A DNA stretch of 20,655 nucleotides, from the IMG/VR virus record IMGVR_UViG_2740892214_000006. The stretch is one strand, 5' to 3'. Each line of letters opens with the position of its first letter. The first letter of the stretch is position 1. The stretch is from a virus (taxonomy: Duplodnaviria > Heunggongvirae > Uroviricota > Caudoviricetes). Positions 1 to 18,177 of the stretch are shown piece by piece. Below the pieces are notes generated by a model. That model saw nothing but the letters and a program-made list of their open reading frames with translations. It was not told the DNA's origin and did not search any database. Made by a program: the position numbers and the translations under genes.

Positions 1-85
1 AGAAACAGAAGCCACTGGAGCACCTCAAAAACACCATCATACACTAAATCAGTAAGTTGGCAGCATCACCCGTGCCCGAGTCTAT

Positions 86-391: not shown

Positions 392-403
392 CGGAGACTG
401 AAA

Positions 404-3099: not shown

Positions 3100-3694
3100 T
3101 TTCTTAACTTTCCATGCAGAAGCAACGCCTGACGGCGTAAACATCATGTACCGCAGCAACGATGGCATGACAGAACGCGTTGAGGCCGTCTCATATATTG
3201 ATGCCGTAAATCGTCTGGATGCCGGGGATTATGACGATAAACCAGATGAAGGTATGTCAATACATCTCGCTATTGCCGATGGCGGCAACCAGGGATATTT
3301 CGATTACACATCACAGCATAACGTCATTATGTGGAGATGGCTGATCGCAACAGTATTCATGCTGGAAATGAGAGAGGAAAACGGCACTGTCAGCATCATT
3401 GATGATACTGGCAATCCTTCCGAAGTGGCTGTTTATTCCAACGGCATCGTCGCCATGCCGCTGTATCCAGTAGCAGAGCGCCTCGCTATGGCAAACAACA
3501 TTGAGGGCGCGATGATAGAACGTTTTGGCATCGAGTCTGGCACAGAACGCGCCATCATTTTCTACAGAGCCATGATGGATGTGGAACAAGGAGCACTGAC
3601 TCCATTTGGTCGTGAAACGCTTGCTGAACTTCACAACAGCTTTATAGCTGAACTGAATGAAAACGGCATGCCAGCGGAACCAGTGACGCACTGA
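3092..3694 (+). CDS. hypothetical protein (200 aa)
   Basis: ATG 3092 overlaps upstream stop (ATGAATAA), SD GAGGCG upstream. The ORF-track start 2987 lies inside the upstream gene and is judged too far 5'. Confidence 0.65.
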   Translation: MNNFLTFHAEATPDGVNIMYRSNDGMTERVEAVSYIDAVNRLDAGDYDDKPDEGMSIHLAIADGGNQGYFDYTSQHNVIMWRWLIATVFMLEMREENGTVSIIDDTGNPSEVAVYSNGIVAMPLYPVAERLAMANNIEGAMIERFGIESGTERAIIFYRAMMDVEQGALTPFGRETLAELHNSFIAELNENGMPAEPVTH

Positions 3695-3704
3695 GGATGG
3701 AGCC

Positions 3705-4046
3705 ATGATTACTAAAAATTTCCGACTGAATGCGCTGGCAAATAAGTATGCGTCGGCACTGTATAACCACATTACCTCCACCAGCGGCGGGGACTATTTC
3801 ATGGTTGATGCGGACGGCGAGGCCGTACGTGTGGAAATCGTCAATGGAGTAAAAGGCGTTCGCAGCCTGATCGATAGCTACACACTGGCAGCCATGAAAG
3901 TGTTCTACCCGCAGTGGGAAACCGTGGGGATCGAGCTTCTTGAGCGTTGCGTCACTAAGGACGGATTGACTGACGTCGGGCGTGAGATATGGCAAAGCAT
4001 GGTTAATGACATGGGCGCAACTGTAGCGGGAGGTTCTCATGCGTGA
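3705..4046 (+). CDS. hypothetical protein (113 aa)
   Basis: SD GAGGATGGAG 5 nt before ATG 3705; starts 10 nt after upstream stop. Confidence 0.65.
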   Translation: MITKNFRLNALANKYASALYNHITSTSGGDYFMVDADGEAVRVEIVNGVKGVRSLIDSYTLAAMKVFYPQWETVGIELLERCVTKDGLTDVGREIWQSMVNDMGATVAGGSHA

Positions 4047-4410
4047 AAATGCAGAAATGGCGCTTAGCTCCGCAATCGGAGAGCAGGTGGCAAAGATTGC
4101 TGGTGCTGTGTGGATTCATAACCTTCATTCTACTGGTGAAGAGAAAATGGCAATTCAGACGCCAGAGGGACGCACCATTACTACATCTCTGAAGCCGTCA
4201 GATGTTTGTGATCTGATTTGCGCATTCATGTACCCAGCAATGAGGACTGTCCACGGCGATAAGTGGAAACTTGCGACAACCGCTGAATTTGATATGTGGC
4301 TAAACAATGATGGCATGCTGACTGATTACGGAATAACCAAGTGGCAGATGCTGGTTAGCCATATCGCAAACGCTATAGACCACGTGGGGTACGGTGATGC
4401 GAAACATTGA
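4039..4410 (+). CDS. hypothetical protein (123 aa)
   Basis: SD GGGAGG upstream of ATG 4039; overlaps upstream stop by 8 nt; stop overlaps primase start region. Confidence 0.65.
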   Translation: MRENAEMALSSAIGEQVAKIAGAVWIHNLHSTGEEKMAIQTPEGRTITTSLKPSDVCDLICAFMYPAMRTVHGDKWKLATTAEFDMWLNNDGMLTDYGITKWQMLVSHIANAIDHVGYGDAKH

Positions 4411-6748: not shown

Positions 6749-6778
6749 TATAGTCTTTTTACAAGAAGATCGTTTTTA

Positions 6779-6881
6779 CCTGTACCACCTATACCACTTT
6801 GCTAATTCAGCATTAAAAACAGTGCGTTATAGTGGTACAGGTCAATATCTTACCTATACCAGACCTGTACCACCTATACCA
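6779..6881. repeat. iteron cluster 1 (candidate origin / cis replication region)
   Basis: 18-bp direct repeat CCTGTACCACCTATACCA at 6779-6796 and 6864-6881, with an inverted core copy TGGTACAGG at 6832-6840; immediately 3' of the primase gene. Confidence 0.6.
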
Positions 6882-6924
6882 TTAACAAACGCATTTCTTC
6901 TGGCTGGCTGAGAGGGAACAACCA

Positions 6925-7155
6925 ATGATGAGCACACCATTTTACAAAGTGCGCCAGTTAGCTTCTTCCTCTGGCTGGCAGCTACGGTTTGAGGGGCGTT
7001 CAGACTGGCTACCCATTGCGGCATGGGCGAATGTTGAAATGTGTATTGACGGCGATACCGTTGAAATCATTATTCCCTGCGTGGCAAGTCGGGACGGCTG
7101 TATAGAGCCAACAGATATGGCAGCAGAAATCAGAGAGGTAAAACATGAACAATAA
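6925..7155 (+). CDS. hypothetical protein (76 aa)
   Basis: SD GAGGGAA upstream of ATG 6925 (second ATG at 6928); 11-nt overlap with the next gene. Confidence 0.5.
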   Translation: MMSTPFYKVRQLASSSGWQLRFEGRSDWLPIAAWANVEMCIDGDTVEIIIPCVASRDGCIEPTDMAAEIREVKHEQ

Positions 7156-7882
7156 CTATTGCATACCGCAGGGAATGACCAGAACGGAGCGCGAAGAATT
7201 AAAAAGTTTCGCTACACAGTGCGGGAATGCTGGCGACATCCAAAGTCTGGAACGCACTTTAATTATGATTGCGCACTGGATGCGCCAGGGGCAAAGAGTT
7301 TCATTTACTGAATATGCCAGCCAGTGGACAGAGGCACAGCGCGAACGGAGCGACGGTAATCACTCAACACCCGAAATGGCGAAGCAATGGCCTTTCAGTG
7401 GTAAACGCTGTATCAGTCCCGGTGGTTCAGATTATTACCCTGCTGGTGTGGGAGATGAGCCATGTTGTGACGAGACTGAAATCCGCCACGCAGTGACAGT
7501 AATTACCGCTGAATACCCACAATTTAACCTTGACGGACTGGCGCTCCACAACCGGAATGCGGACTGGGAAAACCCGCTTGATAACCCATCATTTATCGTA
7601 TCGGCGAAAAGCTGCCTGAAATGGATCAGAGATAACGGGATGAGTAATGCCCAGATTGAGAGCTTCCCGCAGGATAACCCCACATCTGACACGTTGAAGC
7701 ATGAAGTGGAGCGATATAACCAGATAAACCACCAGCACAGTGATCACCCGCACTATATCCCCAACGGAGCATTTATTGCGGCGATGGTGGCAAGCGGCTA
7801 CAAGGTTAAGCCAGCGGGAAGAATGAACGCATTTTTCAATATTTCAAAAAAGGGATTATGTGCTGCTATGGGTAAAAATTAA
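7145..7882 (+). CDS. hypothetical protein (245 aa)
   Basis: SD GAGAGG upstream of ATG 7145; protein-like composition; no family recognised; flanked by both iteron clusters. Confidence 0.65.
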   Translation: MNNNYCIPQGMTRTEREELKSFATQCGNAGDIQSLERTLIMIAHWMRQGQRVSFTEYASQWTEAQRERSDGNHSTPEMAKQWPFSGKRCISPGGSDYYPAGVGDEPCCDETEIRHAVTVITAEYPQFNLDGLALHNRNADWENPLDNPSFIVSAKSCLKWIRDNGMSNAQIESFPQDNPTSDTLKHEVERYNQINHQHSDHPHYIPNGAFIAAMVASGYKVKPAGRMNAFFNISKKGLCAAMGKN

Positions 7883-7887
7883 ATAAA

Positions 7888-7991
7888 TGGTACAGGTCTG
7901 TACAGGTGGGGAGAGGTCATTTTTACCCACCTGTACCACCTGCAGGCCGCGCCACACAAGGGTTTGTGACATGGTGGTACAGGTGGTACAG
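7888..7991. repeat. iteron cluster 2 (candidate origin / cis replication region)
   Basis: Core copies in both orientations: TGGTACAGGT 7888-7897, CTGTACAGGTGG 7898-7909, CACCTGTACCACCTG 7928-7942, GGTGGTACAGGTGGTACAG 7973-7991; shares CCTGTACCACCT with cluster 1. Confidence 0.6.
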
Positions 7992-8356
7992 CAAAAACAG
8001 CGATTTTCTTTATAAGGTATGTTTTGCTCATCTGGCAGACGGAGGTATTCGCTGCGGTTTGGCACGTAGCCCAGAACAGCAAAGAGTTTTACGAGACTTT
8101 TGTAAAATCCAGTGTACAAGGGCGTGACGTTTTTGAAGGAGAGACCTACGAAATTTTCGTAGTTCAAAAAATAGCCTCTGAGATGTTGTTATGCCTGTTC
8201 AGCAAACCATCCGCATAGCTGATCGCGAATCAAATTACCAATGGAGCCAGAAGCAAGGGCAGAACTGGAAAGCGCCTGCCGTGAAGAGTAATGCGACATC
8301 ATAAATATAGTTTTTAGAGTCCATAAAAAACCTGTCAAAACCTGACATACAGAACG

Positions 8357-8390
8357 ATGCCACCAGCTACTGAGCGGTGGCATTTTTTTG
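8357..8390 (+). terminator. rho-independent terminator
   Basis: 8-bp stem ATGCCACC / GGTGGCAT (8357-8364, 8376-8383) with 11-nt loop, followed by a 7-T run (8383-8389). Confidence 0.6.
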
Positions 8391-8419
8391 TGCTATTTGT
8401 TTCATATTTTGCAATCACA

Positions 8420-8455
8420 ATGATGAATGTTGCGTTTTATGAAACTATAATGACT
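8420..8455 (+). promoter_or_regulatory. candidate promoter for the RHH-led operon
   Basis: Perfect TATAAT at 8446-8451 about 35 nt upstream of ATG 8485 in an AT-rich stretch after the terminator; the -35 element is poor. Confidence 0.3.
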
Positions 8456-8484
8456 GTTGTTTTATACAGTTCTAAGGGGGCGTT

Positions 8485-8646
8485 ATGGCTATTTCAGTAA
8501 AGCCGGTATTGATAAGTGAGAAGCAAATGGAAGCGATAAAGAAAATTCAGGAAGAGCAGCGTAAAAAATCAGGAATTGGAGTAGCGCCAACTCTGCATGA
8601 AATTGCACGAGGGTTAATAGATAAGGCGCTGGCAGGCTGTATGTGA
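8485..8646 (+). CDS. ribbon-helix-helix (Arc/MetJ/CopG-like) small DNA-binding protein (53 aa)
   Basis: Below the ORF-track size cutoff. SD AAGGGGG 5 nt before ATG 8485, in-frame stop at 8473-8475. Predicted beta-strand then two helices (VKPVLISEKQMEAIKKIQEEQRK..KSGIG..VAPTLHEIARGLIDKAL). Confidence 0.6.
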   Translation: MAISVKPVLISEKQMEAIKKIQEEQRKKSGIGVAPTLHEIARGLIDKALAGCM

Positions 8647-8662
8647 AAATGGATGGCATCGC

Positions 8663-9124
8663 ATGGAACTAAAATTTATTGATAACCCTGTGCGATTACA
8701 GGCCTTTCTTAACGAGCCAGGCAATACCGAAAATATTGTTGAGCCGGGGCACACGTACTACATCAAGCCTGATGCGGTATATCTCGGCATCTACGAAGGA
8801 TTAGTGCTGGCTGGCGTTCATGAAGTGCGTAACTTCTGGCATAGCGTTGTTGAATGCCATGCGGTGTACGACCCCGGATTCCGTGGTGAATATGCACTGC
8901 AAGGACATCGATTATTCTGCAAATGGCTTCTCGAAAACTCACCATTCCTTAACAGCATCACTATGGTTCCTGACACCACGAAATACGGACGGGCAATTAT
9001 CCGTTTGCTTGGCGCTACCCGTGTTGGTCACCTTGATGATGCTTATATCAGATGTGGTAAACCCGTCGGCGTAACGCTTTATCAGTTAACTCGGCAACAA
9101 TATAAGGAATTCAGCGAATGTTAA
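8663..9124 (+). CDS. hypothetical protein (153 aa); positional analogue of P22 gp14
   Basis: First gene of a coupled four-gene chain; stop overlaps the next start (ATGTTAA). Function inferred only from position. Confidence 0.7.
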   Translation: MELKFIDNPVRLQAFLNEPGNTENIVEPGHTYYIKPDAVYLGIYEGLVLAGVHEVRNFWHSVVECHAVYDPGFRGEYALQGHRLFCKWLLENSPFLNSITMVPDTTKYGRAIIRLLGATRVGHLDDAYIRCGKPVGVTLYQLTRQQYKEFSEC

Positions 9125-9795
9125 TTACCCATATAGCTCATAAACATCTCAATCGTGCCGTATACGAAAAAGGCGGTGATGGTGGTGCCTCTAAAGCTCA
9201 GGCGAAGGCCCAGCAGCAGGCAATTGATTTGCAGCGCGAGCAGTGGAATACGGTGATGAATAATCTCAAGCCGTATGCAGAAGTCGGATTGCCTGCTTTA
9301 CAACAACTGCAAGGACTGATGACTCTGGAAGGGCAGAATAAAGCCGCGAATGATTTCTTTGGTTCTGGTTTATATAAAACACAGGCAGATCAGGCCCGTT
9401 ATCAGAACCTTGTCTCAGCAGAAGCTACCGGGGGGCTTGGCTCAACAGCTACCAGTAACCAGTTATCTTCCATTGCGCCCATGCTTTATAACAATTGGCT
9501 CAGTGGGCAAATGCAAAATTATGGAAACCTGCTAAATGTCGGGATGAATGCGGCATCAGGGCAGGCAACAGCAGGGCAAAACTACGCCAATAATACCGGG
9601 CAACTCTTGCAGGGGCTTGGCGCTATTCGTGCAGGTCAGGCGCAGCAGCCATCCAGTCTTGCGCGTGGTATTGGTGGGGCGGCATCAGGCGCTTTAGCGG
9701 GTGCGCAACTTGGTTCCGTTGTTCCGGGTATAGGTAATGTCGCCGGGGCTATTGGTGGTGGGCTTATTGGTCTTGTTGGGGGGCTTGGATTCTAA
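9118..9795 (+). CDS. putative virion internal/ejection protein (P22 gp7-like by size, order and composition)
   Basis: 225 aa, with Q/N/G/A-rich low-complexity and a Gly-rich hydrophobic C-terminus (GIGGAASGALAGAQLGSVVPGIGNVAGAIGGGLIGLVGGLGF). SD AAGGA upstream; TAATG overlap with the next gene. Confidence 0.75.
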   Translation: MLITHIAHKHLNRAVYEKGGDGGASKAQAKAQQQAIDLQREQWNTVMNNLKPYAEVGLPALQQLQGLMTLEGQNKAANDFFGSGLYKTQADQARYQNLVSAEATGGLGSTATSNQLSSIAPMLYNNWLSGQMQNYGNLLNVGMNAASGQATAGQNYANNTGQLLQGLGAIRAGQAQQPSSLARGIGGAASGALAGAQLGSVVPGIGNVAGAIGGGLIGLVGGLGF

Positions 9796-11093
9796 TGGCG
9801 ACATGGCAACTTGGCGGGCTGCCTAGCATGGCACCGCAAAATGATAATGCTCCTCGTTCTTCCGTTCTTCAGCCTGTGCAGTATCAGCAGCAGCCAAACG
9901 TAGGTTTAATGGCGCTACAGGGGCTAAGAGGCGTTGCTGAGATTAATCAGCAGGCACGTCAACAACAGCGTAAAGCAGAGTTTCAGAAAGCATATGCCGG
10001 GGCTTTTGAGTCTGGAGACAGAAACAAAATGCGCAGTCTTATTTCTGAGTATCCAGAAGAATTTGAAAGCGTTCAGAAAGGGATGGGCTTTATTGATGAC
10101 GACCAGAGAAATTCTATTGGTCATCTTGCGACTAGTGCTCAAATCGCATCTTCGCTCGGAACTGGGGCATTTGGAAAATTCATAGCAGATAACGAAGATG
10201 AAATGCGTCGCTTGGGAATTTCTCCTGAGTCTGTTGCCGAAATGCATGTTAATGATCCACAGGGATTCCAGCGGCTTGCTGGTAGTATGGCACTGTTTTC
10301 TCTCGGTCATGAGAAGTATTTCGATATCAAAGATCAAATGGAAGGTCGTCGACTTGAGCAAGGGCGACTGGATGAAAGTATGCGTCAGGCTGACATGGAG
10401 AACGCGAGAGGATGGGCAAATATCCAGAACGCTCAACTAGACAGGGCTCAGCGAGCACAAATTCACTCAGATGAGATGGGATTGAAGCTAATGGAGCTGG
10501 GGCAAAAAGGTAAGCCGTCAGCAGACTTAATTAAGGGATTAAATTCTGACATTACCAATTTTGGCAAAAATTATAACTCTGTCAGAGCGGCGGCAAACTC
10601 TCTGCAAGCCCTTAGCAAGGTAAATACTGGCGCTGCCCAACTTGGGATTATCTTCAACTACATGAAATCTCTTGACCCGCAGTCAGTCGTTCGTGAAGGC
10701 GAACAGGTTCAGGTAATGCGGTCTGATGGCATATGGGGACAAATCAAAGGATACATAGACCAGCTTAATGCTGGAAACGGCCTGTCGCAGGAGGCAAAGG
10801 ATAACATTGTTAACGCCGCAAAAATCAACGCCAATGCTATGGGGCAGCAGTTTAACCAGCAGGTTGACGAGTATCTCGATACATATGGAGAAACTATTCC
10901 TCAGGGGCTAAGAAAAAGCCTTGAAAGAAGGAAAGCGAAGCTATTTGACGATGTTTCCGGGCAGCCTACATCACAGGCTGGCACTGGACAGGCAAAAGCG
11001 GCAACCGGAGGAATATCAGAAGGCGCAACGGCAACCAACCCTAAAACTGGTCAGAAAATCATTTACAGGAACGGAAAATGGCAGCAAATGTAA
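9795..11093 (+). CDS. putative virion internal/ejection protein (P22 gp20-like by size, order and composition)
   Basis: 432 aa, Q-rich N-terminus, coupled to flanking genes by overlapping start/stop; composition typical of podovirus ejection proteins. Confidence 0.8.
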   Translation: MATWQLGGLPSMAPQNDNAPRSSVLQPVQYQQQPNVGLMALQGLRGVAEINQQARQQQRKAEFQKAYAGAFESGDRNKMRSLISEYPEEFESVQKGMGFIDDDQRNSIGHLATSAQIASSLGTGAFGKFIADNEDEMRRLGISPESVAEMHVNDPQGFQRLAGSMALFSLGHEKYFDIKDQMEGRRLEQGRLDESMRQADMENARGWANIQNAQLDRAQRAQIHSDEMGLKLMELGQKGKPSADLIKGLNSDITNFGKNYNSVRAAANSLQALSKVNTGAAQLGIIFNYMKSLDPQSVVREGEQVQVMRSDGIWGQIKGYIDQLNAGNGLSQEAKDNIVNAAKINANAMGQQFNQQVDEYLDTYGETIPQGLRKSLERRKAKLFDDVSGQPTSQAGTGQAKAATGGISEGATATNPKTGQKIIYRNGKWQQM

Positions 11094-13195
11094 TCTTACC
11101 GGAAGGTTTTGTGCTCGATGAACAACCTGATAACTCACAGTTTCCTGATAGTTCACAGCTTCCTGATGGTTTTGTGCTTGATGCCCAACCAGAACAGCAG
11201 CAATCACCTTTGGTTTCACCAGAGGAAAATTCCAGACAGGAAAATGTTGTTAATAATGCTAACGGTTTCGACCGTTTTATGTATGGCGTTCTCAGTGGAT
11301 TGATGGATGTTGGTAAAGGTGTTGGCCTGTTTCAGGATATGACACCAGAAGAGCAAGCCGCAATTCAGTCTCTACAGCAGAAGTTAGCGGCAAAACCATC
11401 AACCGCACAAGATGTTGGTGAGTTCGTTGGACAAGCAGCGCCATTTGTTAGTGGTGGTGGGATTATTTCTCAGGTTCCCAAAGGGGCGGCAAGACTGGCT
11501 GCCGCCGCAGGGCTTGGTGCTGGAGAAGGGGCTATTGTAGCCAATGGAACAAATAGCGATGTTGCTTCCGGCGCTGCTATTGGCGCTGTGGCTGGCCCTG
11601 TAGCCGAACTTGCTGGCCCTGCAATTAATAAAATAGCTGGGAAATTAACCAAGAAGAATGTTTCTTCGATTCCAGATATTGAGGGGATTACTCCTGCCGA
11701 AGAGAAAATTCGTAAGTTATCTGCACAAGGCAACCCAAATCTTGCCTCTTCGCTTGAAGGGCTAGATCTAAAACCTCAGAAAGAAATTGTTGAGGCTGCA
11801 AATAGGCTTCATGTTGATTCAGTTCTTCCTTCTCATTTATCAGGAAATGAGCAATACCAAGCTGTAGAGCAAGCCCTAAAGTCACGGACAGGATCAGCGT
11901 TAAAAGCTCAAGAAGATAAAGCAATAAGCGAATTAGCCTCTAGTGCTGGCAAGATAATCGATGATGTTGCTGGTGCGCCAGATGCGTTAGCTATGAGCGA
12001 AAAATATATTTATCAGATAAATAGTAGAATGGAAGCACTAAAAAACCGTAGTGATCAGTTATATAAACGTGTTGATTCCGCTCTATCACCAAGAACAAAA
12101 GTCGAAGCAAATAACACAAGCACTATGCTGGAAAAAATCGCTGATGATTTAGGAGGGTGGGATAATCTTGACCCAATAGAAAAGCGAGTTTTTACAGCAA
12201 TAAACCCCGGCCCAGATAGCATCCTAACGTATGCAAATTTAAACAGGCAAAGGCGTTTAGTTGGTGATGCCCTAAATAAAAAGCAGGGGCCATACAAAGA
12301 TGCTGATAAAGAAGCGCTATCAAGACTATATGGAGCTTTAGCTGAAGACCAAAAATCTGTCTTATCCAATACTGGATACTTGCGAGATTTCGAAGTCGCA
12401 CAACGCCTTGTAGCTATGAGAAAAAACTTAGAAAGGCAAATGGTAAATCTTCGCGGGAAAACACTTAATGGGGATATAGCGTATAAAGTAACGAATTCTC
12501 TTCAATCTATGGCAAAAGGTGATGCGAGAGGGTTTCGTGAGATTATGCAAAATACTCCATCAAGAACATTGCGAAGGGAGCTAGTAGGAACAGCATTAAG
12601 AGATATACTTTCCTCTGGGAAGCGTGGGGCCGACTTTAATCCATCTGGCTTTGCAGATTGGTGGCAAAACTTGCAACACAGTGGACAGCTAAAGACTTTG
12701 GCTGAACATTTGCCAAAAGAAACAATGAGCGGACTATATGATGTATACAAAGTTGCCAGAGCAATAAAAAATGCTAAAGCGCATGAAATATCTACTGGTA
12801 AGCTGAATGAGTTTGTAAACAGATTTAATCGGGTAACAGCTCCATACGAACTAGCAGCAAAACACATTCAAAAAATAGGCACGATGGTAGGCGCTCATTT
12901 TGGATCGCTTGGAGCCATTGCTGGGGCTGATATTGGAGCAAGATTGGCGAGTAAAGCTCGATTAGCTGGTGGAGCAGGGGCGGCTGATGCTGCGGATAAA
13001 TTAATTGCCTCGCCAGCCTTCCAGAGCGCAGTAAAAAATCTACACGGAAAAGCGCCTGGGCACATTGTTGATTCACGTATCAGGCGCTCCCCTCAATGGA
13101 AGAGTTTTTTTAACTCTCTTCCTGAACAGGAAAAACGGACCATCGCCAGACTGGGCATCATTACTTGGCTATCTAATGATCCAGATAATGACTAG
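11078..13195 (+). CDS. putative virion internal/ejection protein (P22 gp16-like by size, order and composition)
   Basis: 705 aa; SD AGGAACGG upstream, start overlaps previous gene by 16 nt. N-terminal tandem repeat LPEGFVLDEQP / LPDGFVLDAQP; Gly/Ala-rich blocks flank a lower-GC central part. Confidence 0.8.
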   Translation: MAANVILPEGFVLDEQPDNSQFPDSSQLPDGFVLDAQPEQQQSPLVSPEENSRQENVVNNANGFDRFMYGVLSGLMDVGKGVGLFQDMTPEEQAAIQSLQQKLAAKPSTAQDVGEFVGQAAPFVSGGGIISQVPKGAARLAAAAGLGAGEGAIVANGTNSDVASGAAIGAVAGPVAELAGPAINKIAGKLTKKNVSSIPDIEGITPAEEKIRKLSAQGNPNLASSLEGLDLKPQKEIVEAANRLHVDSVLPSHLSGNEQYQAVEQALKSRTGSALKAQEDKAISELASSAGKIIDDVAGAPDALAMSEKYIYQINSRMEALKNRSDQLYKRVDSALSPRTKVEANNTSTMLEKIADDLGGWDNLDPIEKRVFTAINPGPDSILTYANLNRQRRLVGDALNKKQGPYKDADKEALSRLYGALAEDQKSVLSNTGYLRDFEVAQRLVAMRKNLERQMVNLRGKTLNGDIAYKVTNSLQSMAKGDARGFREIMQNTPSRTLRRELVGTALRDILSSGKRGADFNPSGFADWWQNLQHSGQLKTLAEHLPKETMSGLYDVYKVARAIKNAKAHEISTGKLNEFVNRFNRVTAPYELAAKHIQKIGTMVGAHFGSLGAIAGADIGARLASKARLAGGAGAADAADKLIASPAFQSAVKNLHGKAPGHIVDSRIRRSPQWKSFFNSLPEQEKRTIARLGIITWLSNDPDND

Positions 13196-13214
13196 TGAAT
13201 GGCCACGGATGGCC

Positions 13215-13640
13215 TCAATCTTTATTCTTTGAAATAGAGTCATTGATCTTTTCGAAACACCAATGAAATCCACAAAAGAGAGCTACACCAATATAACAAT
13301 ACAAAACTATCAACCACCTTTCAGTGTCCGAAGGGTAAAAAACATCAATTACATAAGCAACACCAATTGGTATTAATGCTAGTAATAACATCGACACAGG
13401 ACGTACAAACTTCTGAACTATATCAATTTTATAGAACCACAAGGCGGTATGTTTAATGATATAAGTAAAGATGGCTGCGCCAATAATGGCAAAAAACACC
13501 ATCGATAAAGTCGGGTATAACTTTGCGACAATTAAACCCAACAAAATAATTATAACTGCCTGCCCCCTCACACCAACCCTCCCTTTAGCTTTGTTTAGAA
13601 TGGCAATCATCATATATCCAAGACATGGCATTTGGTACAT
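13215..13640 (-). CDS. small integral membrane protein (4 predicted TM helices); candidate superinfection-exclusion protein
   Basis: 141-aa ORF convergent with the ejection-protein operon; four hydrophobic segments; markedly AT-rich (moron-like); occupies the position of sieA in P22-type genomes. Weak RBS, start uncertain. Confidence 0.6.
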   Translation of the reverse strand: MYQMPCLGYMMIAILNKAKGRVGVRGQAVIIILLGLIVAKLYPTLSMVFFAIIGAAIFTYIIKHTALWFYKIDIVQKFVRPVSMLLLALIPIGVAYVIDVFYPSDTERWLIVLYCYIGVALFCGFHWCFEKINDSISKNKD

Positions 13641-13764
13641 AGCTTGGGTCGGGATTTCAAATCCGCTCCCAGTTGATGGGGCCGTTACAGTACGCGCATA
13701 TCCGCTTTATGTGAAACAGGAAGATTTTTCTGATATCACTGCCACAGCAAAACACCAATTTCGA

Positions 13765-13780
13765 GACAAGTACGCGCGCG
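13765..13780. repeat. GACAAGTACGCGCGCG motif, copy 1
   Basis: Exact 16-mer shared with copies at 14050 and 15333; alternating CG palindromic core. Confidence 0.6.
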
Positions 13781-13788
13781 AGGGGTAT

Positions 13789-13812
13789 CAGTTGCAAAAA
13801 GTTTTGCAACTG
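13789..13812. promoter_or_regulatory. operator-like perfect palindrome CAGTTGCAAAA-AG-TTTTGCAACTG
   Basis: 11-bp inverted arms with a 2-nt spacer, in the 450-bp intergenic region upstream of the membrane-protein gene. Confidence 0.4.
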
Positions 13813-14049
13813 CGTCCGACCAGTACGCACACAATGGAGGGAAGTACCATAAAACTGTTCTCTACATAAGACAGAGTGGTGGTGATGTGTTGATTATCGG
13901 CGTATATGCGCACAGGACGCGCTATGACAATGTTTTATGCGGGTACACCAATCACATGTATCTGATGTGATAAATCGCGTTACATGACATCTCTGTTGTG
14001 CTGGTGGTTATCACGACTTTCTGAATCTGGCCTTTGCCTGATATTTTGC

Positions 14050-14065
14050 GACAAGTACGCGCGCG
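14050..14065. repeat. GACAAGTACGCGCGCG motif, copy 2
   Basis: Exact 16-mer; extended palindrome TACGCGCGCGTA; lies about 30 nt beyond the 3' end of the small - strand gene. Confidence 0.6.
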
Positions 14066-14093
14066 TAGCATCGACAGCATACACATTGGATAT

Positions 14094-14315
14094 TCATTTT
14101 GTGACCAATGCGATAAGTAGCGGGATAAGAATTGATAAAATCAACAGGCCGATGATCCACTTTTGATTTTCACTGGCCTTATCTCTATTTTCATCAATCT
14201 TATCAATAATTCGACGCTCCAAGCCGTGCATATCACCGCGAATGGCAATCATCTCATTGCGAACATCCGAGAAGTGGTTGGCTTGATGTTCAATGTGTGG
14301 CGTTCTGCCTTTCAT
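14094..14315 (-). CDS. small tail-anchored membrane protein (73 aa)
   Basis: Hydrophilic charged N-terminal 50 aa followed by one C-terminal TM helix (WIIGLLILSILIPLLIALV); AGGA upstream of ATG. Confidence 0.5.
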   Translation of the reverse strand: MKGRTPHIEHQANHFSDVRNEMIAIRGDMHGLERRIIDKIDENRDKASENQKWIIGLLILSILIPLLIALVTK

Positions 14316-14394
14316 TCCTGATCCTCACCTATCGTCACCACCTGCTGGTGTATAAAGGTATTGGCCCAAGCAGCTTTCCAATGGGCACTCATGT

Positions 14395-14850
14395 TTATAC
14401 GCTGACCTTACAATCAATCACCGCTTTTAACTTTTCAGCATTGCTTCCCTGACGCTTCCACGCGCTGTAAATATCTTTATCCCACGCTTTACCAGCTTTT
14501 GTTTGATAGCCTGCTTCATTGATCCGTTCAGCTATCACACGCCCATTATCAAATCCCTGTTGGATGGTATCGGCAATGATCTTTATAACTGCCGTTTCGT
14601 TATATGGTTTTGGTGGGATGTTCGGCTTTCCGGCAATAAGCGACGCAGCGGCTTTTTCCATGCGCTCCACCAGCCCAAGCATTCGTGAATCAATAGACTT
14701 TTCCGGCTGCCCCAGCTTCATGCGAATCGCATCAACAAGCCAGGAGGTTTTATCTCCTCCAGAAGCGAGAACAGACCGATTAAACTCATCCTGCAATTCA
14801 GATGGGATGCGGAACGCGATCAGATTAGATTTGCTCATTGCAAAGACCAT
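14395..14850 (-). CDS. RHH-domain (Arc/Mnt-like) repressor-like protein with C-terminal extension (151 aa)
   Basis: N-terminus has an RHH signature (beta-strand LIAFRIPSEL followed by helices); divergent from the PerC-like gene across an operator-like region. Start could be ATG 14850 or 14838. Confidence 0.65.
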   Translation of the reverse strand: MVFAMSKSNLIAFRIPSELQDEFNRSVLASGGDKTSWLVDAIRMKLGQPEKSIDSRMLGLVERMEKAAASLIAGKPNIPPKPYNETAVIKIIADTIQQGFDNGRVIAERINEAGYQTKAGKAWDKDIYSAWKRQGSNAEKLKAVIDCKVSV

Positions 14851-14867
14851 ATCAGTGAGTAATATCC

Positions 14868-14899
14868 ATACAGTATACCACTGTATAACACTGTTATAC
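14868..14899. promoter_or_regulatory. operator-like repeats in a divergent promoter region
   Basis: Inverted repeat ATACAGT (14868-14874) / ACTGTAT (14880-14886), followed by direct repeats ACTGTATAAC / ACTGTTATAC (14880-14899), between divergent genes. Confidence 0.4.
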
Positions 14900-15002
14900 G
14901 CTCAAATATCAGCCAGAAAATAACGGACCAATCACAAAGCTATCGCTGTGTTGTTGGTTCAGAGCTGGGCTGTGTTGGTTCAAAATAATCTGAGAGGCAG
15001 AA

Positions 15003-15284
15003 ATGATAAGGGACAGGAAAGCTGAAGAGCTGGAGTCAAAAGGGCTATACCGGAGAGCTGCCGCACGATGGATGGAAGTCATGCTGTTATGCACCGAGGA
15101 CGATGATCGGGAATGGATAAAGCGCCGCCGTGAAACGTGTCTGGAGAACGTGAAGCGCCCGCCCGTGAAGGTTGAGGACTTTGGCGACCTGCATAAAGCT
15201 GTTACCGAAACGCAACACCGCATGGGGATAGCGCAACCGAACGGTAACGCCTTCCGGTTAAATGGCGGCAAGAGGCAAAGGTAG
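15003..15284 (+). CDS. PerC-family-like transcriptional regulator (93 aa)
   Basis: SD GAGAGG 5 nt before ATG 15003. Motif EELESKGLYRRAAARWMEVM...DREWIKRRRETCL matches my recollection of the PerC/Pch family signature. Confidence 0.65.
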   Translation: MIRDRKAEELESKGLYRRAAARWMEVMLLCTEDDDREWIKRRRETCLENVKRPPVKVEDFGDLHKAVTETQHRMGIAQPNGNAFRLNGGKRQR

Positions 15285-15288
15285 ACCA

Positions 15289-15310
15289 CCAGAGGGAAAT
15301 CATCCTCTGG
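15289..15310 (+). terminator. possible weak terminator hairpin
   Basis: 7-bp stem CCAGAGG / CCTCTGG with 8-nt loop, 5 nt after the PerC-like stop; the downstream T-tract is poor. Confidence 0.3.
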
Positions 15311-15332
15311 CTGGCGGTTTCTGGTATTTCGG

Positions 15333-15350
15333 GACAAGTACGCGCGCGCG
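15333..15350. repeat. GACAAGTACGCGCGCG(CG) motif, copy 3
   Basis: Same motif with one extra CG, giving the palindrome TACGCGCGCGCGTA; about 50 nt after the PerC-like stop. Confidence 0.6.
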
Positions 15351-15581
15351 TAGCACCCAATCGGTGAGGAAATAGCGGCGACCTGAATGGTCAAAATCAC
15401 AACGCAGCTATCCCCGTAAGCAGCGCTTAACGGAATAGCAGTAACCTGAATCCAGTGGGGAGGGGGTAGTCAAATCTCTACAGCCCTGACTATCCGGGAC
15501 TGCCCGCCCCATCGTTTTTTTATACCCGCGAAAAATGAAATTTAATCCGGGCGTGTTTCATCCTTCCAGAGGGTATGACGT

Positions 15582-15767
15582 ATGACACCACGCGAAATAG
15601 CCTTATTGACCATCGCCAAACTTGAGCACGGAGGCCACCAGCTTACACAGGCAGATCAACGGGAGATAGAACGATCAGTTAATGCCGATATAGCCCGGCG
15701 CGACAGGTTCCGCGAAATGATGCGAGCACCTGCCTACCAGTGGAAGAAGCCAGCGCCGCGCAGGTAG
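15582..15767 (+). CDS. small hypothetical protein (61 aa)
   Basis: ATG 15582 with AGAGGG about 9 nt upstream; charged and Arg-rich; no family recognised; could be spurious. Confidence 0.35.
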   Translation: MTPREIALLTIAKLEHGGHQLTQADQREIERSVNADIARRDRFREMMRAPAYQWKKPAPRR

Positions 15768-15887
15768 ATATGGGATTATTCCACATGTAACTTATGCGTA
15801 TTAAGCAAATTTCCTTTATTCACCTTTACAGAATTGTGAGTACGTCAGTATCGTTATCCTTCCGATTCGCATTTATTCAGGATTTGC

Positions 15888-16430
15888 ATGTACCAGCTAA
15901 AGATAACCATCCGAGACAGCAAACCACCTATATGGCGGCGTGTGCTGGTTCCAGAGCAAATCCCCTTTAGTAAACTTCATGCCGTGATCCAGTTAGCTTT
16001 TGGCTGGAATGACGAACACCTGTATATGTTCGAGAAAGGGCGTAAAGGTGATCCAGGTAGCGAGTATCGCGTATGGGGTGAGGATGAAAGCATGGGTAAC
16101 GCGGCAATCACGCCACTATGGGCGGCGCTCCAGAATGAGGGTGACAAGCTGGTTTACACGTATGACTTTGGCGACTGGTGGGATTGCGTCATTGTGCTGG
16201 AGAAGCAAACACACGATACGAGTAATCAGCCCATTAGCTGCCTGCGTGGGAAAGGCACCACCCCGGCGGAAAACTCAGGCGGCTTGCATGGTTACAATGA
16301 ATTGCTATTACAGGCCAGAGAGTCTGATAATCCTGAGCAGGCCGAGATCCACAATTTCCTGATGCTGGATATTGAACGCCGGGTTTACGACCTGAGCCGC
16401 ATCAACGACAGATTGCAGGCTATTTACTGA
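15888..16430 (+). CDS. plasmid pRiA4b ORF-3-like (PRiA4_ORF3) domain protein (180 aa)
   Basis: N-terminal YQLKITIRDSKPPIWRRVLVP...LH.VIQ.AFGW..EHLYMF matches the PRiA4_ORF3 signature as recalled; AGGA 5 nt before ATG. Confidence 0.8.
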   Translation: MYQLKITIRDSKPPIWRRVLVPEQIPFSKLHAVIQLAFGWNDEHLYMFEKGRKGDPGSEYRVWGEDESMGNAAITPLWAALQNEGDKLVYTYDFGDWWDCVIVLEKQTHDTSNQPISCLRGKGTTPAENSGGLHGYNELLLQARESDNPEQAEIHNFLMLDIERRVYDLSRINDRLQAIY

Positions 16431-16782
16431 CCCGCATGTATTCACCTGATATTGCGTTGTCAGCGCCGCCAGTATCGCGCATAACAGCGCACTGACCGGG
16501 TAAACCGTAGCGCACGACCGTTGCGTTAGTATCACCGCCGCGCCGTATCTGGCGCGATTCATACACTGTCACCCGCTCAAGCAGTCCACCAGCAACCATG
16601 CTTTCCAGTGTGCGCCGGGTTGATTCGAGCTGGTGACGCTTATCGAACGACACCATGCCATGAAGCAGGTAGGCCACACCCGACACATCGAACGGCGGCG
16701 CACCAATCTCACCAGTCACCCATTCGAGGTTATCCGGTTCAAAGTAGCTAAGTATCTCTTTTTTGCGACTGGTCATTCTCAT
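16420..16782 (-). CDS. hypothetical protein (120 aa)
   Basis: Protein-like ORF convergent with the PRiA4_ORF3-like gene (3' ends overlap by 11 nt); AAGGA about 10 nt upstream of ATG 16782. Confidence 0.6.
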   Translation of the reverse strand: MRMTSRKKEILSYFEPDNLEWVTGEIGAPPFDVSGVAYLLHGMVSFDKRHQLESTRRTLESMVAGGLLERVTVYESRQIRRGGDTNATVVRYGLPGQCAVMRDTGGADNAISGEYMRVSK

Positions 16783-17013
16783 GGCTGGCTGATTCCTTAT
16801 TGTGGGATAGCACTATCATACAATAAGTGGGTTAAAGGGAGAGCGTTACCGCCTGATATGCTGTATGAATAACAACCAAATTTCAGGGGCGGAAAAAGAT
16901 ATGGGGGTACTTTTGGGGGTATCTATAAAAAATGAACAATAAAAAAGGCAACAAAAACAAAGATTATCGCCTATGTGTATTGTTCCTATTATCGCACCAT
17001 TTAAATCAATAAG
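16783..17013. other. attP-like region with core resembling a tRNA-Thr 3' end
   Basis: AT-rich 230-bp non-coding region just 3' of int. 16983-16999 TTCCTATTATCGCACCA resembles the 3' end of thrW as recalled (CTCCTATTATCGGCACCA) with a 1-nt gap. No 5' tRNA portion upstream. Confidence 0.45.
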
Positions 17014-18177
17014 TTACACATCATTAGTACCTTCCTTATTTTTTGACTGGGACAAATTTGGGACCGATGGGTTCAGGATCGAGTCTATTTGCCGTGCGTG
17101 TTCGGTAAGGTGATTAGGTGCAAGGTGAGCATATCGACGAACCATTTCGATAGACTCCCAGCCTCCCATTTCCTGTAACACTGACAACGGGACTCCGGCT
17201 TGAACCAGCCAACTTGCCCAGGTGTGTCTCAAGTCGTGAAATCTGAAATCATCAATACCAGCCCGTCTCAGCGCCGCTTTCCAGGCTGTGTTTGCGTCAT
17301 ACCGCATCTTCCTTACTGTTGGCGCTTTCGTTCCGTCTGGTTTGGTACAGCTTTCCTTGTACACAAATACCCAACGGTGATGATTCCCGATTTGTTTTTT
17401 CAATACGCGACATGCAGTATCATTCAGCGCAACGCCAATTGCGCGGTTTGATTTACTCTCTTCCGGGTTTATCCATGCCACCCGGCGCTGCATATCTATT
17501 TGTTGCCATTCAAGGTTGATGATGTTCGAGCGTCTTAAGCCTGTTGCCAGTGCAAATTCAACAACAGACTTTAATGGCTCCGGACATTCATCAATCAGCC
17601 TTTGTGCTTCATGGGGCTCCAGCCAGCGGATCCGTTTATTCTTTGGTTGAGGCACTTTAATAATTGGTGCCTTATCCAGCATTTTCCATTCACGCTCTGC
17701 GGCTCTTAGTAGGGCCTTTATAAATGAAAGATGCGTAGCCTTCGTTGCAACGGACGCCGGTTTTGGCGTGTATTCTGGAACAGGTTTCCCTTTTTTTCTG
17801 CATGCTTCTGCCCTGAGTTTCCAGTTTTCCTCATGACGCCGGTTCGTCATTTTCTGCATTGCTGAATAAATTTTTGATTCAGTAATGTCTCTTAGTTGCA
17901 TTCCTGCGAAATGTTGAAGCCAGAATCCGATCCGGCTTTTGTCATCGTCCAGTGATTTTTTATGTGCTTTCTCTTCAAGCCACCTGACACACGCTTCCTC
18001 GAACGTTATATCAGGTATTTCACCAAGTTTGCTGACCCGCCATGCTTCAGCCTTTAGCTTGTCATGGAGTTCTGTCGCCTGCCTTTTGTCCTTTGTTCCA
18101 AGAGACTGTTTAAATCTTTTACCGTTCGGCAATGTGAAACTGGCGTACCATATTTCACCTCTGCGGAAGAGTGACAT
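17014..18177 (-). CDS. int: tyrosine integrase, P22-type
   Basis: 387 aa; N-terminus [28 protein letters not shown] matches my recollection of P22 Int; catalytic motifs [10 protein letters not shown] and RRYAHL; strong SD GAGGAAAG upstream. Confidence 0.95.

What the first reader, a model, noticed from the sequence alone, without database searches (positions are those of the whole stretch)
13215..14850. Low-GC three-gene minus-strand module at the sieA/immI position: candidate superinfection-exclusion or defence locus
Directly after the gp16-like gene, on the opposite strand, lie a 4-TM membrane protein (141 aa), a tail-anchored 73-aa protein and a 151-aa RHH-domain protein, separated by a 450-bp region dense in palindromes. 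The genes are markedly AT-richer than their surroundings. P22 carries sieA, hkcC and mnt at this position, and the location is known to be variable. None of the three proteins matches a family I can name, so this is the most plausible place in the window for an undescribed exclusion or immunity system.
Basis: partly seen in the sequence, partly recalled or inferred. Interest (0 to 1): 0.6.

Follow-up and report, generated by a model that had tools for sequence, protein, structure and literature searches.

The report
Ant-moron/sieA cargo slots on satellite-like island
The three genes are real but are not one system: they are a conserved Arc/Mnt-type repressor plus two independently swappable cargo slots, where sister islands carry a true SieA exclusion protein or AbiD, next to P22-type DNA-ejection genes on a small E. 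coli island, which makes the orphan membrane protein an untested candidate phage-exclusion factor.

Summary
All three minus-strand ORFs exist as described. Only A (13215-13640) is AT-rich (GC 0.36); C matches the window average. The element is not a P22 prophage. It is a primase/antirepressor integrative island, seen at about 18 kb in ETEC H10407, that carries a P22-type gp14-7-20-16 ejection cassette and the adjacent 'ant-moron'-like region.

The genes are three separately inherited parts.
- **C** is a core gene of this island family in at least 20 enterobacterial genera. It is an Arc/Mnt-like RHH protein with a second conserved helical domain. Its operator, GTATAAC-N3-GTTATAC, overlaps its own promoter and covaries with the β-strand.
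- **B** is a tail-anchored, XhlA/phrog_6324-type membrane protein. An 83%-identical homologue lies downstream of mnt in genuine P22-like prophages. In sister islands its slot holds AbiD.
- **A** is an orphan 4-TM protein: 7 hits among 1.84 billion representative proteins. Its slot holds a true SieA homologue in 103 E. coli genomes, and other envelope proteins elsewhere. A is strictly linked to one gp16 allele.

The 'module' claim does not. An exclusion function for A and B is inferred, not shown.

The parts
8663..13195 (+). P22-type internal/ejection protein cassette: gp14-like 8663-9124, gp7 9118-9795, gp20 9795-11093, gp16-like 11078-13195. This is the context that defines the locus.
   Evidence: Pfam DUF2824 1.5e-61, P22_gp7 1.9e-72, Inj_translocase 5.5e-48; phrog_6704/phrog_770 for the 705-aa protein. 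The proteins are 43-82% identical to those of genuine P22-like prophages. The 3' half of this gp16 allele plus the start of A is found in 87 E. coli genomes, all at >=99% identity. The same number of genomes carry A.
13215..13640 (-). Gene A (slot 1, the sieA position): orphan 4-TM inner-membrane protein, GC 0.357. The likely start is 13610/13613 (131-132 aa).
   Evidence: ORF. Hydropathy. Only 16 k-mer-indexed hits and 7 hits among 1.84 billion representatives. No phage match. No PHROG or PADLOC hit. Weak sub-threshold Bax1-I and CBO0543 matches. AF2 pLDDT 60, four long helices. Not homologous to P22 SieA (E=2.1) or to the island SieA-like allele (E=0.8).
13568..14074 (.). Conserved non-coding anchor, plus the first codons of the slot-1 gene, lying between the two cargo slots.
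   Evidence: Present at 91-99% identity in 545 of 5426 complete E. coli genomes, against 87 for full A. Substitutions show no 3-nt periodicity. Stretches 13683-13761 and 13872-13928 are invariant in 9 islands. No Rfam hit. RNA folding z-scores are -0.7 and -1.1. No homology to P22 or any phage record.
13789..13812 (.). Perfect 11+11 palindrome CAGTTGCAAAA-AG-TTTTGCAACTG, about 175-200 nt upstream of A's start. Candidate regulator-binding site.
   Evidence: longest in the window, reached by 0 of 300 shuffles. The loop varies and the stem is largely kept among islands.
13765..13780 (+). Copy 1 of the 16-mer GACAAGTACGCGCGCG.
   Evidence: Exact 13-mer present three times in the window. The same motif is in the Serratia, Tatumella, Morganella, Providencia and Symbiopectobacterium islands, always on the main-operon strand.
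14050..14065 (+). Copy 2 of the 16-mer, containing the palindrome TACGCGCGCGTA. The left junction of slot 2 lies 9-10 nt beyond it.
   Evidence: Sequences diverge after ...GTAGCATCGA in islands that carry AbiD or AlpA instead of B.
14094..14315 (-). Gene B (slot 2): 73-aa tail-anchored coiled-coil membrane protein, phrog_6324/XhlA-like. It has a good SD (GAGGA) and lies 79 nt downstream of C.
   Evidence: phrog_6324 3e-11, holin phrog_689 0.004. An in-frame 7-codon indel variant confirms it is coding. Relatives hit Pfam XhlA at 8e-7, 4e-4 and 0.013, all below the gathering score, and holin phrog_689 at 1.4e-8. The 83%-identical homologue P0148 lies mnt-123aa-B-small membrane protein, convergent on gp16, in P22-like prophages.
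14395..14850 (-). Gene C: island-core Arc/Mnt-type RHH protein (residues ~5-50) with a highly conserved helical C-terminal domain (residues ~80-150). The likely start is 14838.
14872..14899 (-). C promoter/operator: inverted repeat GTATAAC-ACT-GTTATAC (14883-14899), immediately upstream of an extended -10 TGGTATACT (the -10 hexamer is 14872-14877 on the minus strand).
   Evidence: Single exact copy in the window and in the whole H10407 island. It is conserved 40-46 nt upstream of the start codon in all genera. It is replaced by the direct repeat TGTCTTAC-N2-TGTCTTAC exactly where the β-strand changes from NL[VI]AFR to [LI]SVTFR.
14952..14982 (+). Two TGTTGGTTCA repeats, the remnant of a five-repeat array between C and perC. 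The window lacks 97 bp at position 14985/14986 that relatives carry.
   Evidence: 7 matches in L001 against 1.8 expected. The same TGAACCAACA repeats lie upstream of C in Pantoea, Erwinia and Mixta loci.
15003..15284 (+). Divergent perC gene, occupying the position of arc/ant in P22.
   Evidence: Pfam PerC 1.7e-30.
15333..15348 (+). Copy 3 of the 16-mer, just after perC.

Best explanation
The interval is the accessory 'ant-moron / sieA-immI' region that travels with a P22-type ejection-protein cassette. Here it sits on a primase- and antirepressor-encoding integrative island (about 18 kb in ETEC H10407, satellite-like), not on a P22 prophage. It consists of three independently inherited parts.

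1. **C** is a core island gene. It encodes an Arc/Mnt-type ribbon-helix-helix protein that most likely binds the inverted repeat GTATAAC-N3-GTTATAC overlapping its own promoter, and so autoregulates the C-B transcript. Its second, very conserved helical domain has an unknown partner.
2. **Slot 2** holds B in this window. B is a tail-anchored XhlA/phrog_6324-type membrane protein that P22-like prophages carry downstream of mnt. It is therefore probably made in the lysogenic, uninduced state. Sister islands carry AbiD in this slot.
3. **Slot 1** is the true sieA position. In this window it holds A, an orphan 4-TM inner-membrane protein inherited as a unit with one gp16 allele.

Most likely function of A (inferred, not shown): it is a functional analogue, not a homologue, of SieA. 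It would sit in the inner membrane and interfere with the gp20/gp16 DNA-delivery conduit of incoming P22-like phages. B would be a second constitutively expressed membrane-acting accessory factor, for exclusion or abortive infection.

Shown: gene reality, synteny, slot variability and slot contents, C family breadth, operator conservation and covariation. Inferred: DNA binding by C, expression state, and any exclusion activity.
For: Synteny and origin:
- Gene-for-gene synteny with P22.
- The cassette proteins are P22 gp14/7/20/16 families and are 43-82% identical to those of real P22-like prophages.
- The region is described in the literature as the variable 'ant moron' holding mnt, arc, ant, sieA and hkc genes (PMC2629481).

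Slot 1:
- Six alleles were seen: A; a 42%-identical 4-TM variant; a signal-peptide protein (phrog_2651); a lipoprotein with a LAGC lipobox; the 204-aa SieA homologue; and small TM proteins in P22-like prophages.
- All are envelope proteins.
- The SieA-like allele is in 103 genomes. A is in 87.

Slot 2:
- It holds B or AbiD (PADLOC 5e-58, Pfam Abi_2 2e-52), or B and C are replaced by an AlpA-like HTH.
- The two slots combine freely.

C:
- 49 loci in at least 20 genera, without A or B.
- The operator is conserved and covaries perfectly with the β-strand, 29/29 and 21/21.
- There is a single operator copy per island.

B: the homologue sits in the mnt operon of P22-like prophages.

Against: - A has no detectable similarity to any SieA type, lacks the FxRYPxEAxxFNK motif, and has no PADLOC or PHROG hit.
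- A has almost no relatives. It is >=99% identical in all carriers, so purifying selection cannot be shown.
- Its structure model is poor.
- Strict linkage of A to one gp16 allele could be mere adjacency, or could point to a role with gp16 rather than against incoming phage.
- No promoter above chance was found for A.
- B's XhlA relationship is transitive and below Pfam thresholds. B itself gives no Pfam hit.
- C's RHH assignment rests on weak E-values (1e-3 to 1e-2) and gets no Pfam Arc hit. The two-state operator covariation may reflect a single evolutionary event.
Confidence: 0.55

Rival explanations
1. The three genes form one co-evolved three-component exclusion/immunity system.
For: In E. 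coli, 82 of the 87 genomes with A also carry B and C contiguously. All three are on one strand, downstream of one autoregulated promoter.
Against: B and C occur with four other slot-1 alleles. C occurs with AbiD instead of B. A's variant occurs with AlpA instead of B and C. C is found in at least 20 genera without A or B. B's homologue functions next to a different repressor, Mnt, in P22-like prophages. The A+B+C combination is a near-clonal island variant at >=97% identity.
Confidence: 0.05
2. C and B form a type II toxin-antitoxin-like pair. C would be an RHH antitoxin that autoregulates the operon. B would be a small membrane-depolarising, holin-like toxin that could act as an abortive-infection switch.
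For: The architecture fits: an autoregulated RHH gene followed 79 nt later by a small tail-anchored membrane protein with a good SD. B relatives resemble the holin and XhlA families. The alternative occupant of the slot is an Abi protein.
Against: C is conserved across the order without any B-like gene downstream; usually a convergent p61 gene follows. B homologues sit after Mnt and a 123-aa protein in prophages, and among tail genes in a Klebsiella phage, with no C. C carries an extra, highly conserved 70-aa domain that is atypical of antitoxins.
Confidence: 0.08
3. A, and perhaps B, is not anti-phage. It may serve the island's or phage's own biology together with its linked gp16 allele, for example by helping or timing assembly of the delivery conduit or lysis. 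Or it may be a host-fitness moron of another kind (membrane stress, virulence).
For: There is strict 87/87 linkage of A with one gp16 allele at >=99% identity. The lipoprotein allele is linked with the SLT-domain gp16-like allele. There is no defence-database hit. Many morons have non-defence roles.
Against: A is on the opposite strand from the late-type cassette, as sieA is. The same slot holds a real SieA homologue. Every allele is an envelope protein, as expected for entry blockers. The second gp16 type pairs with three different slot-1 alleles, so there is no obligatory pairing.
Confidence: 0.2
4. A is a decaying or spurious ORF in AT-rich junk left by recombination, with no function.
For: It is an orphan with 7 relatives in 1.84 billion proteins. 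It has low GC, a weak SD at the first ATG, and no promoter above chance.
Against: Diverged full-length relatives at 48%, 42% and 37% identity keep the same four-helix layout and motifs (LGLIVxKLYP, YPSxTERW). The ORF is intact in all carriers examined. The upstream leader and 450-bp region are conserved in 545 genomes.
Confidence: 0.1

Closest known systems
P22 'ant moron' (sieA - orf59a/hkcC - mnt | arc - sar - ant) between gene 16 and tailspike gene 9 of P22-like phages
   Same: The gene-for-gene layout and strand pattern after 14-7-20-16 are identical. Variability is of the same kind as that described for this region (PMC2629481). B has an 83%-identical homologue in that region of E. coli P22-like prophages. 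Sister islands carry a SieA homologue in the same slot.
   Different: There are no arc, sar or ant genes and no tailspike. perC and other island genes follow instead. There is no DNA homology to P22 itself. The repressor position is filled by a larger island-core RHH protein. The whole region sits on a primase-bearing island that lacks coat, portal, terminase and tail genes in the ~8.6 kb of this window upstream of the cassette and throughout the H10407 copy.
SieA superinfection-exclusion protein (types A-C; Leavitt et al. 2024, PMC10883804)
   Same: Small polytopic inner-membrane protein encoded convergently right after gene 16. It is allelic with a true SieA homologue in sister islands.
   Different: There is no sequence similarity (E=2.1). 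The FxRYPxEAxxFNK cytoplasmic motif is absent. A has four predicted helices with a short tail, against three or four plus a cytoplasmic C-terminal region. No phenotype is known.
P22 Mnt / Arc ribbon-helix-helix repressors
   Same: The N-terminal MSK-β-strand-FR(I/V)P-helix-helix pattern aligns in register. The operator overlaps the protein's own promoter. It occupies the position of mnt.
   Different: It is 143-151 aa with an additional invariant helical, HTH-like domain. There is no Pfam Arc hit. The operator is 7-3-7 inverted, or an 8-2-8 direct repeat in one clade. There is only one operator per island, so no evidence that it controls an antirepressor.
XhlA (PF10779) / phrog_689 holin-like tail-anchored phage membrane proteins
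   Same: About 70 aa, with an N-terminal coiled coil and a single C-terminal TM. Family relatives hit XhlA and the holin PHROG.
   Different: All hits are below Pfam's gathering score and B itself gives none. It is not in a lysis cassette and no endolysin is nearby.
Defence hotspots of P2 phages and P4 satellites (Rousset et al. 2022, PMC9122126)
   Same: Variable cargo, including Abi-type genes, lies between conserved anchors in a small integrative phage-related element. Alleles are exchanged by recombination at the anchors.
   Different: The element family is different: no psu, delta or sid was seen. The hotspot derives from the P22 ant moron. Slot 1 is restricted to envelope proteins.

Membership tests
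SieA family (for A) | Detectable sequence homology to SieA types A, B or C | tested here: not met
   BLASTP A vs P22 SieA E=2.1. A vs the island SieA-like 204-aa allele E=0.8. A gives no PHROG hit, whereas P22 SieA hits phrog_7745 at 9e-109 and the 204-aa allele at 4e-4.
SieA family (for A) | Conserved cytoplasmic motif FxRYPxEAxxFNK near the C-terminus (PMC10883804) | tested here: not met
   The motif is absent from A by direct reading. It is present as NRYPGEA in the sister allele.
SieA family (for A) | Polytopic inner-membrane protein encoded between gene 16 and the immI/tailspike side | tested here: met
   Four hydrophobic segments by hydropathy and four long helices in the AF2 model. Position is immediately after gp16 on the opposite strand. 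Membrane localisation itself is predicted, not shown.
SieA family (for A) | Blocks DNA injection of P22-like phages | not testable with these tools
   Needs plating, K+ efflux and DNA-entry assays.
Arc/Mnt ribbon-helix-helix repressors (for C) | N-terminal β-strand/helix/helix domain with recognisable sequence similarity | tested here: inconclusive
   BLASTP vs Mnt E=1e-3 (27% over 37 aa). hhalign vs Mnt E=0.004 and vs Arc E=0.01, but with low probability values. No Pfam Arc or RHH hit. One database source names a homologue 'Arc-like DNA binding domain protein'. AF2 predicts helices at 17-29 and 34-45, but the monomer model has low confidence there.
Arc/Mnt ribbon-helix-helix repressors (for C) | Repeat operator overlapping the regulated (own) promoter | tested here: met
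   GTATAAC-N3-GTTATAC abuts an extended -10, 40-46 nt upstream of the start codon in all genera. The switch to TGTCTTAC repeats coincides exactly with the β-strand change. Binding itself was not tested.
XhlA / holin-like (for B) | Score above Pfam PF10779 gathering threshold | tested here: not met
   B gives no Pfam hit at E<=10. Relatives score 29.6, 20.8 and 16.1 bits against a threshold of 34.7.
XhlA / holin-like (for B) | Short protein with an N-terminal coiled coil and a single C-terminal TM | tested here: met
   Sequence and hydropathy. phrog_6324 3e-11.
Known anti-phage defence systems (PADLOC) | HMM match of any of A, B or C to a catalogued defence protein | tested here: not met
   No hits at E<=0.1. 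Sister-island occupants do hit AbiD.
Type II toxin-antitoxin pair (C+B) | Conserved co-occurrence of the antitoxin and toxin genes | tested here: not met
   C lacks a downstream B in all non-E. coli loci. B homologues occur without C.
P22-like prophage (host element) | Coat, portal, terminase, tail and tailspike genes around the 14-7-20-16 cassette | tested here: not met
   Upstream genes in the window are AntA, Ash, primase (Zn_Ribbon_Prim/Toprim_3/DUF5906) and unknowns. H10407 annotation shows int-HTH-antA-ash-primase-ejection genes only.
P4-like / PICI phage satellites (host element) | Integrase + AlpA-type regulator + primase, size 10-20 kb, plus helper-exploitation genes (sid/psu/delta, ppi/rpp) and helper-dependent packaging | tested here: inconclusive
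   Integrase, a small HTH regulator and a primase are present in the ~18-kb H10407 copy. IMG/VR-24 kb proviruses. No capsid-redirection gene was recognised among the window ORFs scanned with Pfam/PHROGs, and H10407's own annotation names none. Mobilisation is not testable here.

The most novel reading that the evidence does not exclude
A satellite-like island family has captured the P22 ejection-protein cassette together with its sieA locus and uses them as matched pairs. The island-encoded inner-membrane protein (SieA, or non-homologous replacements such as A) would shut the door to helper-type P22-like phages. Island-encoded gp16/gp20 alleles, packaged into hijacked particles, would be the cognate 'keys' that still pass. 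This would make A a new, sequence-unrelated class of DNA-entry blocker co-evolving with one gp16 allele.
Probability: 0.12. Interest if true: 0.8.

Novelty: new variant of a known kind. Interest (0 to 1): 0.45.

Why it matters
Comparative evidence makes A an orphan membrane protein allelic with SieA. It is a cheap, well-motivated candidate for a new superinfection-exclusion protein. How SieA-type proteins stop the gp20/gp16 conduit is still unresolved (PMC10883804), so a non-homologous analogue tied to one gp16 allele would be a useful second handle on that question.

The context may matter more. A primase-bearing island that carries only the ejection proteins and the ant-moron of a podovirus was not described in the papers I could search. 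It also extends where sieA genes live: in the cases the 2024 study examined in detail, they lay in P22-like prophages.

The C protein and its covarying operator form a clean, testable regulator-operator pair conserved across Enterobacterales.

Tried and rejected
- **Defence and family databases.** PADLOC on the three proteins and seven neighbours gave nothing. Pfam and NCBIfam on A gave only sub-threshold hits (Bax1-I, CBO0543), which I treated as transmembrane composition.
- **RNA.** Rfam was searched at gathering threshold and at E<=1 over 13100-15700 and found nothing in the interval. Folding the 453-nt spacer on both strands gave z-scores of -0.7 and -1.1, not significant. I therefore dropped the sRNA/riboswitch idea.
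- **Promoters and terminators.** The scan gave counts at or below chance, with no terminator.
- **Homology to phages.** The region has no DNA homology to P22 or to 50,697 phage records.
- **Structure of A.** The model has pLDDT 60, so I ran no fold search on it.
- **Rejected hypotheses.** The toxin-antitoxin reading of C+B fails on co-occurrence. An integron-like cassette site at the 16-mer fails because only one of the four slot junctions coincides with a copy. C as a master repressor of the island is unlikely, because there is only one operator copy in the whole H10407 island.
Full report
**1. Observation.** They lie directly after a 705-aa gp16-like gene. That gene closes a P22-type cassette of gp14-like (DUF2824), gp7, gp20 (Inj_translocase) and gp16-like genes.
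- Hydropathy supports four membrane segments in A and one C-terminal segment in B.
- The probable true starts are later than the longest ORFs. For A it is 13610/13613, as RefSeq annotates. For C it is M5 at 14838, where all orthologues begin with MSKS.
- The composition claim holds only for A (GC 0.357). B is 0.419. C (0.465) and the spacer (0.466) match the window average of 0.475.
- The spacer contains one exceptional perfect palindrome of 11+11 nt at 13789-13812, reached by 0 of 300 shuffles, and a few short ones.
- The spacer also holds two of the three exact copies of the 13-mer AAGTACGCGCGCG at 13768 and 14053. The third, at 15336, lies just after perC.

**2. What element this is.** The DNA is E. 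coli chromosomal. It is 99% identical to strain STEC383 and 97.5% to ETEC H10407, with no nucleotide match among 50,697 phage records.
- In H10407 the element runs integrase, small HTH, AntA/AntB, Ash, primase, ejection genes, A, B, C, PerC, a 61-aa protein, a pRiA4b-ORF3 protein and a 120-aa protein, and then meets host paoD.
- The window's left part matches this: AntA, Ash, a Zn-ribbon/Toprim/DUF5906 primase, and C4 antisense and IsrK RNAs.
- There are no coat, portal, terminase, tail or tailspike genes in the ~8.6 kb of the window upstream of the cassette or in the H10407 copy. It is therefore an integrative, satellite-like island (about 18 kb in H10407), not a P22 prophage.
- IMG/VR lists relatives as 17-24 kb proviruses with C near one end.

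**3. Synteny with P22.** P22 has 14-7-20-16 on one strand. It then has sieA, a ~380-bp gap, orf59a and mnt on the other strand, followed by divergent arc-ant. The window has the same pattern, with A, a 453-bp gap, B, C, and then divergent perC.
- At the sequence level, A is unrelated to SieA (E=2.1) and B is unrelated to orf59a.
- C's N-terminus aligns with the Mnt RHH (E=1e-3; hhalign 0.004) and with Arc (0.01).
- This region of P22-like phages is known as the highly variable 'ant moron' (PMC2629481).

**4. The three genes are not one module.** C has more than 350 homologues of about 143 aa. It was found in 49 loci from species-representative genomes of at least 20 enterobacterial genera. These loci usually have a primase, PerC, and the 61-aa and 120-aa proteins nearby, but never A or B. 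A and B are essentially confined to E. coli.
- Among 5426 complete E. coli genomes, the non-coding spacer is present in 545. Full A is in 87. C is in 361. B and C together are in 166.
- Sampling sister islands shows two cargo slots on either side of the conserved spacer.
- Slot 1 holds one of: A; a 42%-identical 4-TM variant; a signal-peptide protein; a lipoprotein on the other strand; or a 204-aa membrane protein.
- Slot 2 holds B or an AbiD gene (PADLOC 5e-58, Pfam Abi_2). Alternatively, B and C are replaced by an AlpA-like HTH.
- The slot alleles occur in many combinations.
- The A+B+C arrangement of this window is one near-clonal variant.

**5. Slot 1 is a real sieA locus.**
- The 204-aa allele (L065:9279-9893, and also in L072) is a SieA homologue. 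BLASTP against P22 SieA gives E=8e-8 with 29% identity over 108 aa. It contains the family's RYPGEA motif and hits phrog_7745 'SieA-like' at 4e-4.
- It sits behind the same leader remnant, in islands whose gp14, gp7, perC, p61, pRiA4 and p120 are 99-100% identical to the window's.
- It occurs in 103 E. coli genomes.
- Every slot-1 allele seen is an envelope protein.
- A is an orphan, with 7 hits among 1.84 billion representative proteins. Its diverged relatives at 48%, 42% and 37% identity keep the same layout.
- A is inherited with one gp16 allele. The gp16-A junction is in 87 genomes, all at >=99% identity, the same number that carry A.
- The second gp16 type pairs with three different slot-1 alleles. 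Pairing is therefore not obligatory in general.

**6. B.**
- B belongs to phrog_6324 (3e-11), with a weak holin PHROG hit.
- An in-frame 7-codon indel variant shows it is coding.
- Its relatives reach Pfam XhlA at 8e-7 to 0.013, all below the gathering score, and the holin phrog_689 at 1.4e-8. B itself gives no Pfam hit.
- Its 83%-identical homologue P0148 lies in genuine E. coli P22-like prophages in the order arc | mnt - 123 aa - B-like - small membrane protein, convergent on gp16-gp20-gp7-gp14, with Ant and tailspike beyond.
- B is thus a bona fide ant-moron gene of the mnt operon. By inference it is expressed in the lysogenic state.

**7. C and its operator.**
- An alignment of 30 homologues shows an RHH-like N-terminus, a variable linker and an almost invariant C-terminal domain, including GKAWDKDIYSAWKRQ.
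- AlphaFold gives pLDDT >90 for residues 80-150, which are helical.
- Structure searches return only generic HTH-type DNA-binding domains or nothing significant. Pfam's recombinase-like HTH_62 appears at E=0.25.
- Immediately upstream of C, in every genus and 40-46 nt before the start codon, lies GTATAAC-N3-GTTATAC abutting an extended -10 (TGnTATAAT/TATACT).
- In the Pantoea/Erwinia/Tatumella/Rosenbergiella clade this is replaced by TGTCTTAC-N2-TGTCTTAC.
- The switch coincides exactly with a change of the predicted DNA-reading β-strand from NL[VI]AFR (29/29) to [LI]SVTFR (21/21). This is two states, perhaps one event. It is therefore consistent with RHH-operator recognition but is not statistical proof.
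- The operator is unique in the window and in the whole H10407 island. I therefore infer autoregulation of the C-B transcript rather than control of the whole island.

**8. The spacer.**
- It is the most widely conserved piece (545 genomes). It is non-coding by its substitution pattern.
- It has no Rfam match, no significant RNA fold and no phage homologue.
- It probably carries the slot-1 promoter and regulatory sites, including the 24-bp palindrome, and acts as the recombination anchor between the slots.
- The 16-mer GACAAGTACGCGCGCG recurs in islands of Serratia, Tatumella, Morganella, Providencia and Symbiopectobacterium, always on the main-operon strand. Its role is unexplained.

**9. Mechanism and verdict.**
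- *Best reading (confidence about 0.55 overall).* This is an ant-moron-derived, two-slot accessory region beside an autoregulated Arc/Mnt-type regulator. The architecture is well supported. The functions are inferred.
- *Role of A.* A is most plausibly a non-homologous functional analogue of SieA acting at the inner membrane against the gp20/gp16 conduit of P22-like phages. SieA biology is taken from PMC10883804.
- *Role of B.* B is a second membrane-acting moron.
- *Rivals.* These are a single three-gene system (largely refuted), a C/B toxin-antitoxin pair (co-occurrence fails), a non-defence role linked to gp16, or junk.
- *Novelty.* It is a new variant of a known kind. Variable ant morons and satellite or prophage defence hotspots are established. 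The orphan A, the C regulator-operator pair, and above all the island that carries only a podovirus's ejection proteins and sieA locus, appear undescribed in the literature I could search.

Noticed in passing
window 1-16800 (island), esp. 4394-6748 and 8663-13195: This is a primase/AntA/Ash integrative island that carries only the P22 gp14-7-20-16 internal/ejection proteins. No coat, portal, terminase or tail genes were found. Sister islands swap the gp16 type, including a 906-aa SLT-domain version, and some lack gp14 and gp7. I found no description of such satellite-like elements in the searchable literature.
   Followed up: partly
L065:9279-9893, L072:10318-10932 (sister islands): A genuine SieA homologue (E=8e-8 against P22 SieA, RYPGEA motif) sits on these non-P22 islands, in 103 complete E. 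coli genomes. The 2024 SieA study reported that, in all cases it examined in detail, sieA genes lay in P22-like prophages.
   Followed up: partly
window 1787-1975: Rfam IsrK (63 bits) and C4 antisense RNA (80 bits) lie side by side inside or in front of the 'Ash family' ORF 1406-2434, downstream of the AntA/AntB gene. This looks like a P1/P7-type immI antisense control module on the island.
   Followed up: no
window 14952-14986; L001 15933-16046: Relatives have five TGTTGGTTCA/TGAACCAACA repeats, three direct at 21-bp spacing and two inverted, between the C operator and perC. This window has a 97-bp deletion that removes three of them and the likely perC -35/-10. The same repeats flank C's operator in Pantoea, Erwinia and Mixta islands. 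They may be iterons or sites for another regulator.
   Followed up: partly
window 13765-13780, 14050-14065, 15333-15348: The 16-mer GACAAGTACGCGCGCG, which contains the palindrome TACGCGCGCGTA, occurs three times. It is always on the + (main-operon) strand and in intergenic DNA, and is conserved in islands of distant genera. Its function is unknown.
   Followed up: partly
L061:7690-8582, L010:6541-7433 (sister islands, between p61 and pRiA4b-ORF3): Some sister islands insert a Panacea-domain (SocA-like antitoxin) gene plus a 144-aa partner in the perC operon. This suggests a third cargo position, with a toxin-antitoxin or defence flavour.
   Followed up: no
window 16420-18177: A second tyrosine integrase (17014-18177, minus strand) directly follows the 120-aa gene across an AT-rich gap (GC 0.37 at 16750-17050). 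The same p120-integrase adjacency recurs in L071 and, next to C, in Klebsiella and Symbiopectobacterium islands. This integrase may belong to the island family rather than to a neighbouring prophage.
   Followed up: no
window 15582-15767 and 16420-16782: The 61-aa and 120-aa proteins of unknown function co-occur with C across genera. The 61-aa gene is usually convergent on C, and the 120-aa gene usually lies just upstream. Together with C they look like a conserved island-end gene set.
   Followed up: no
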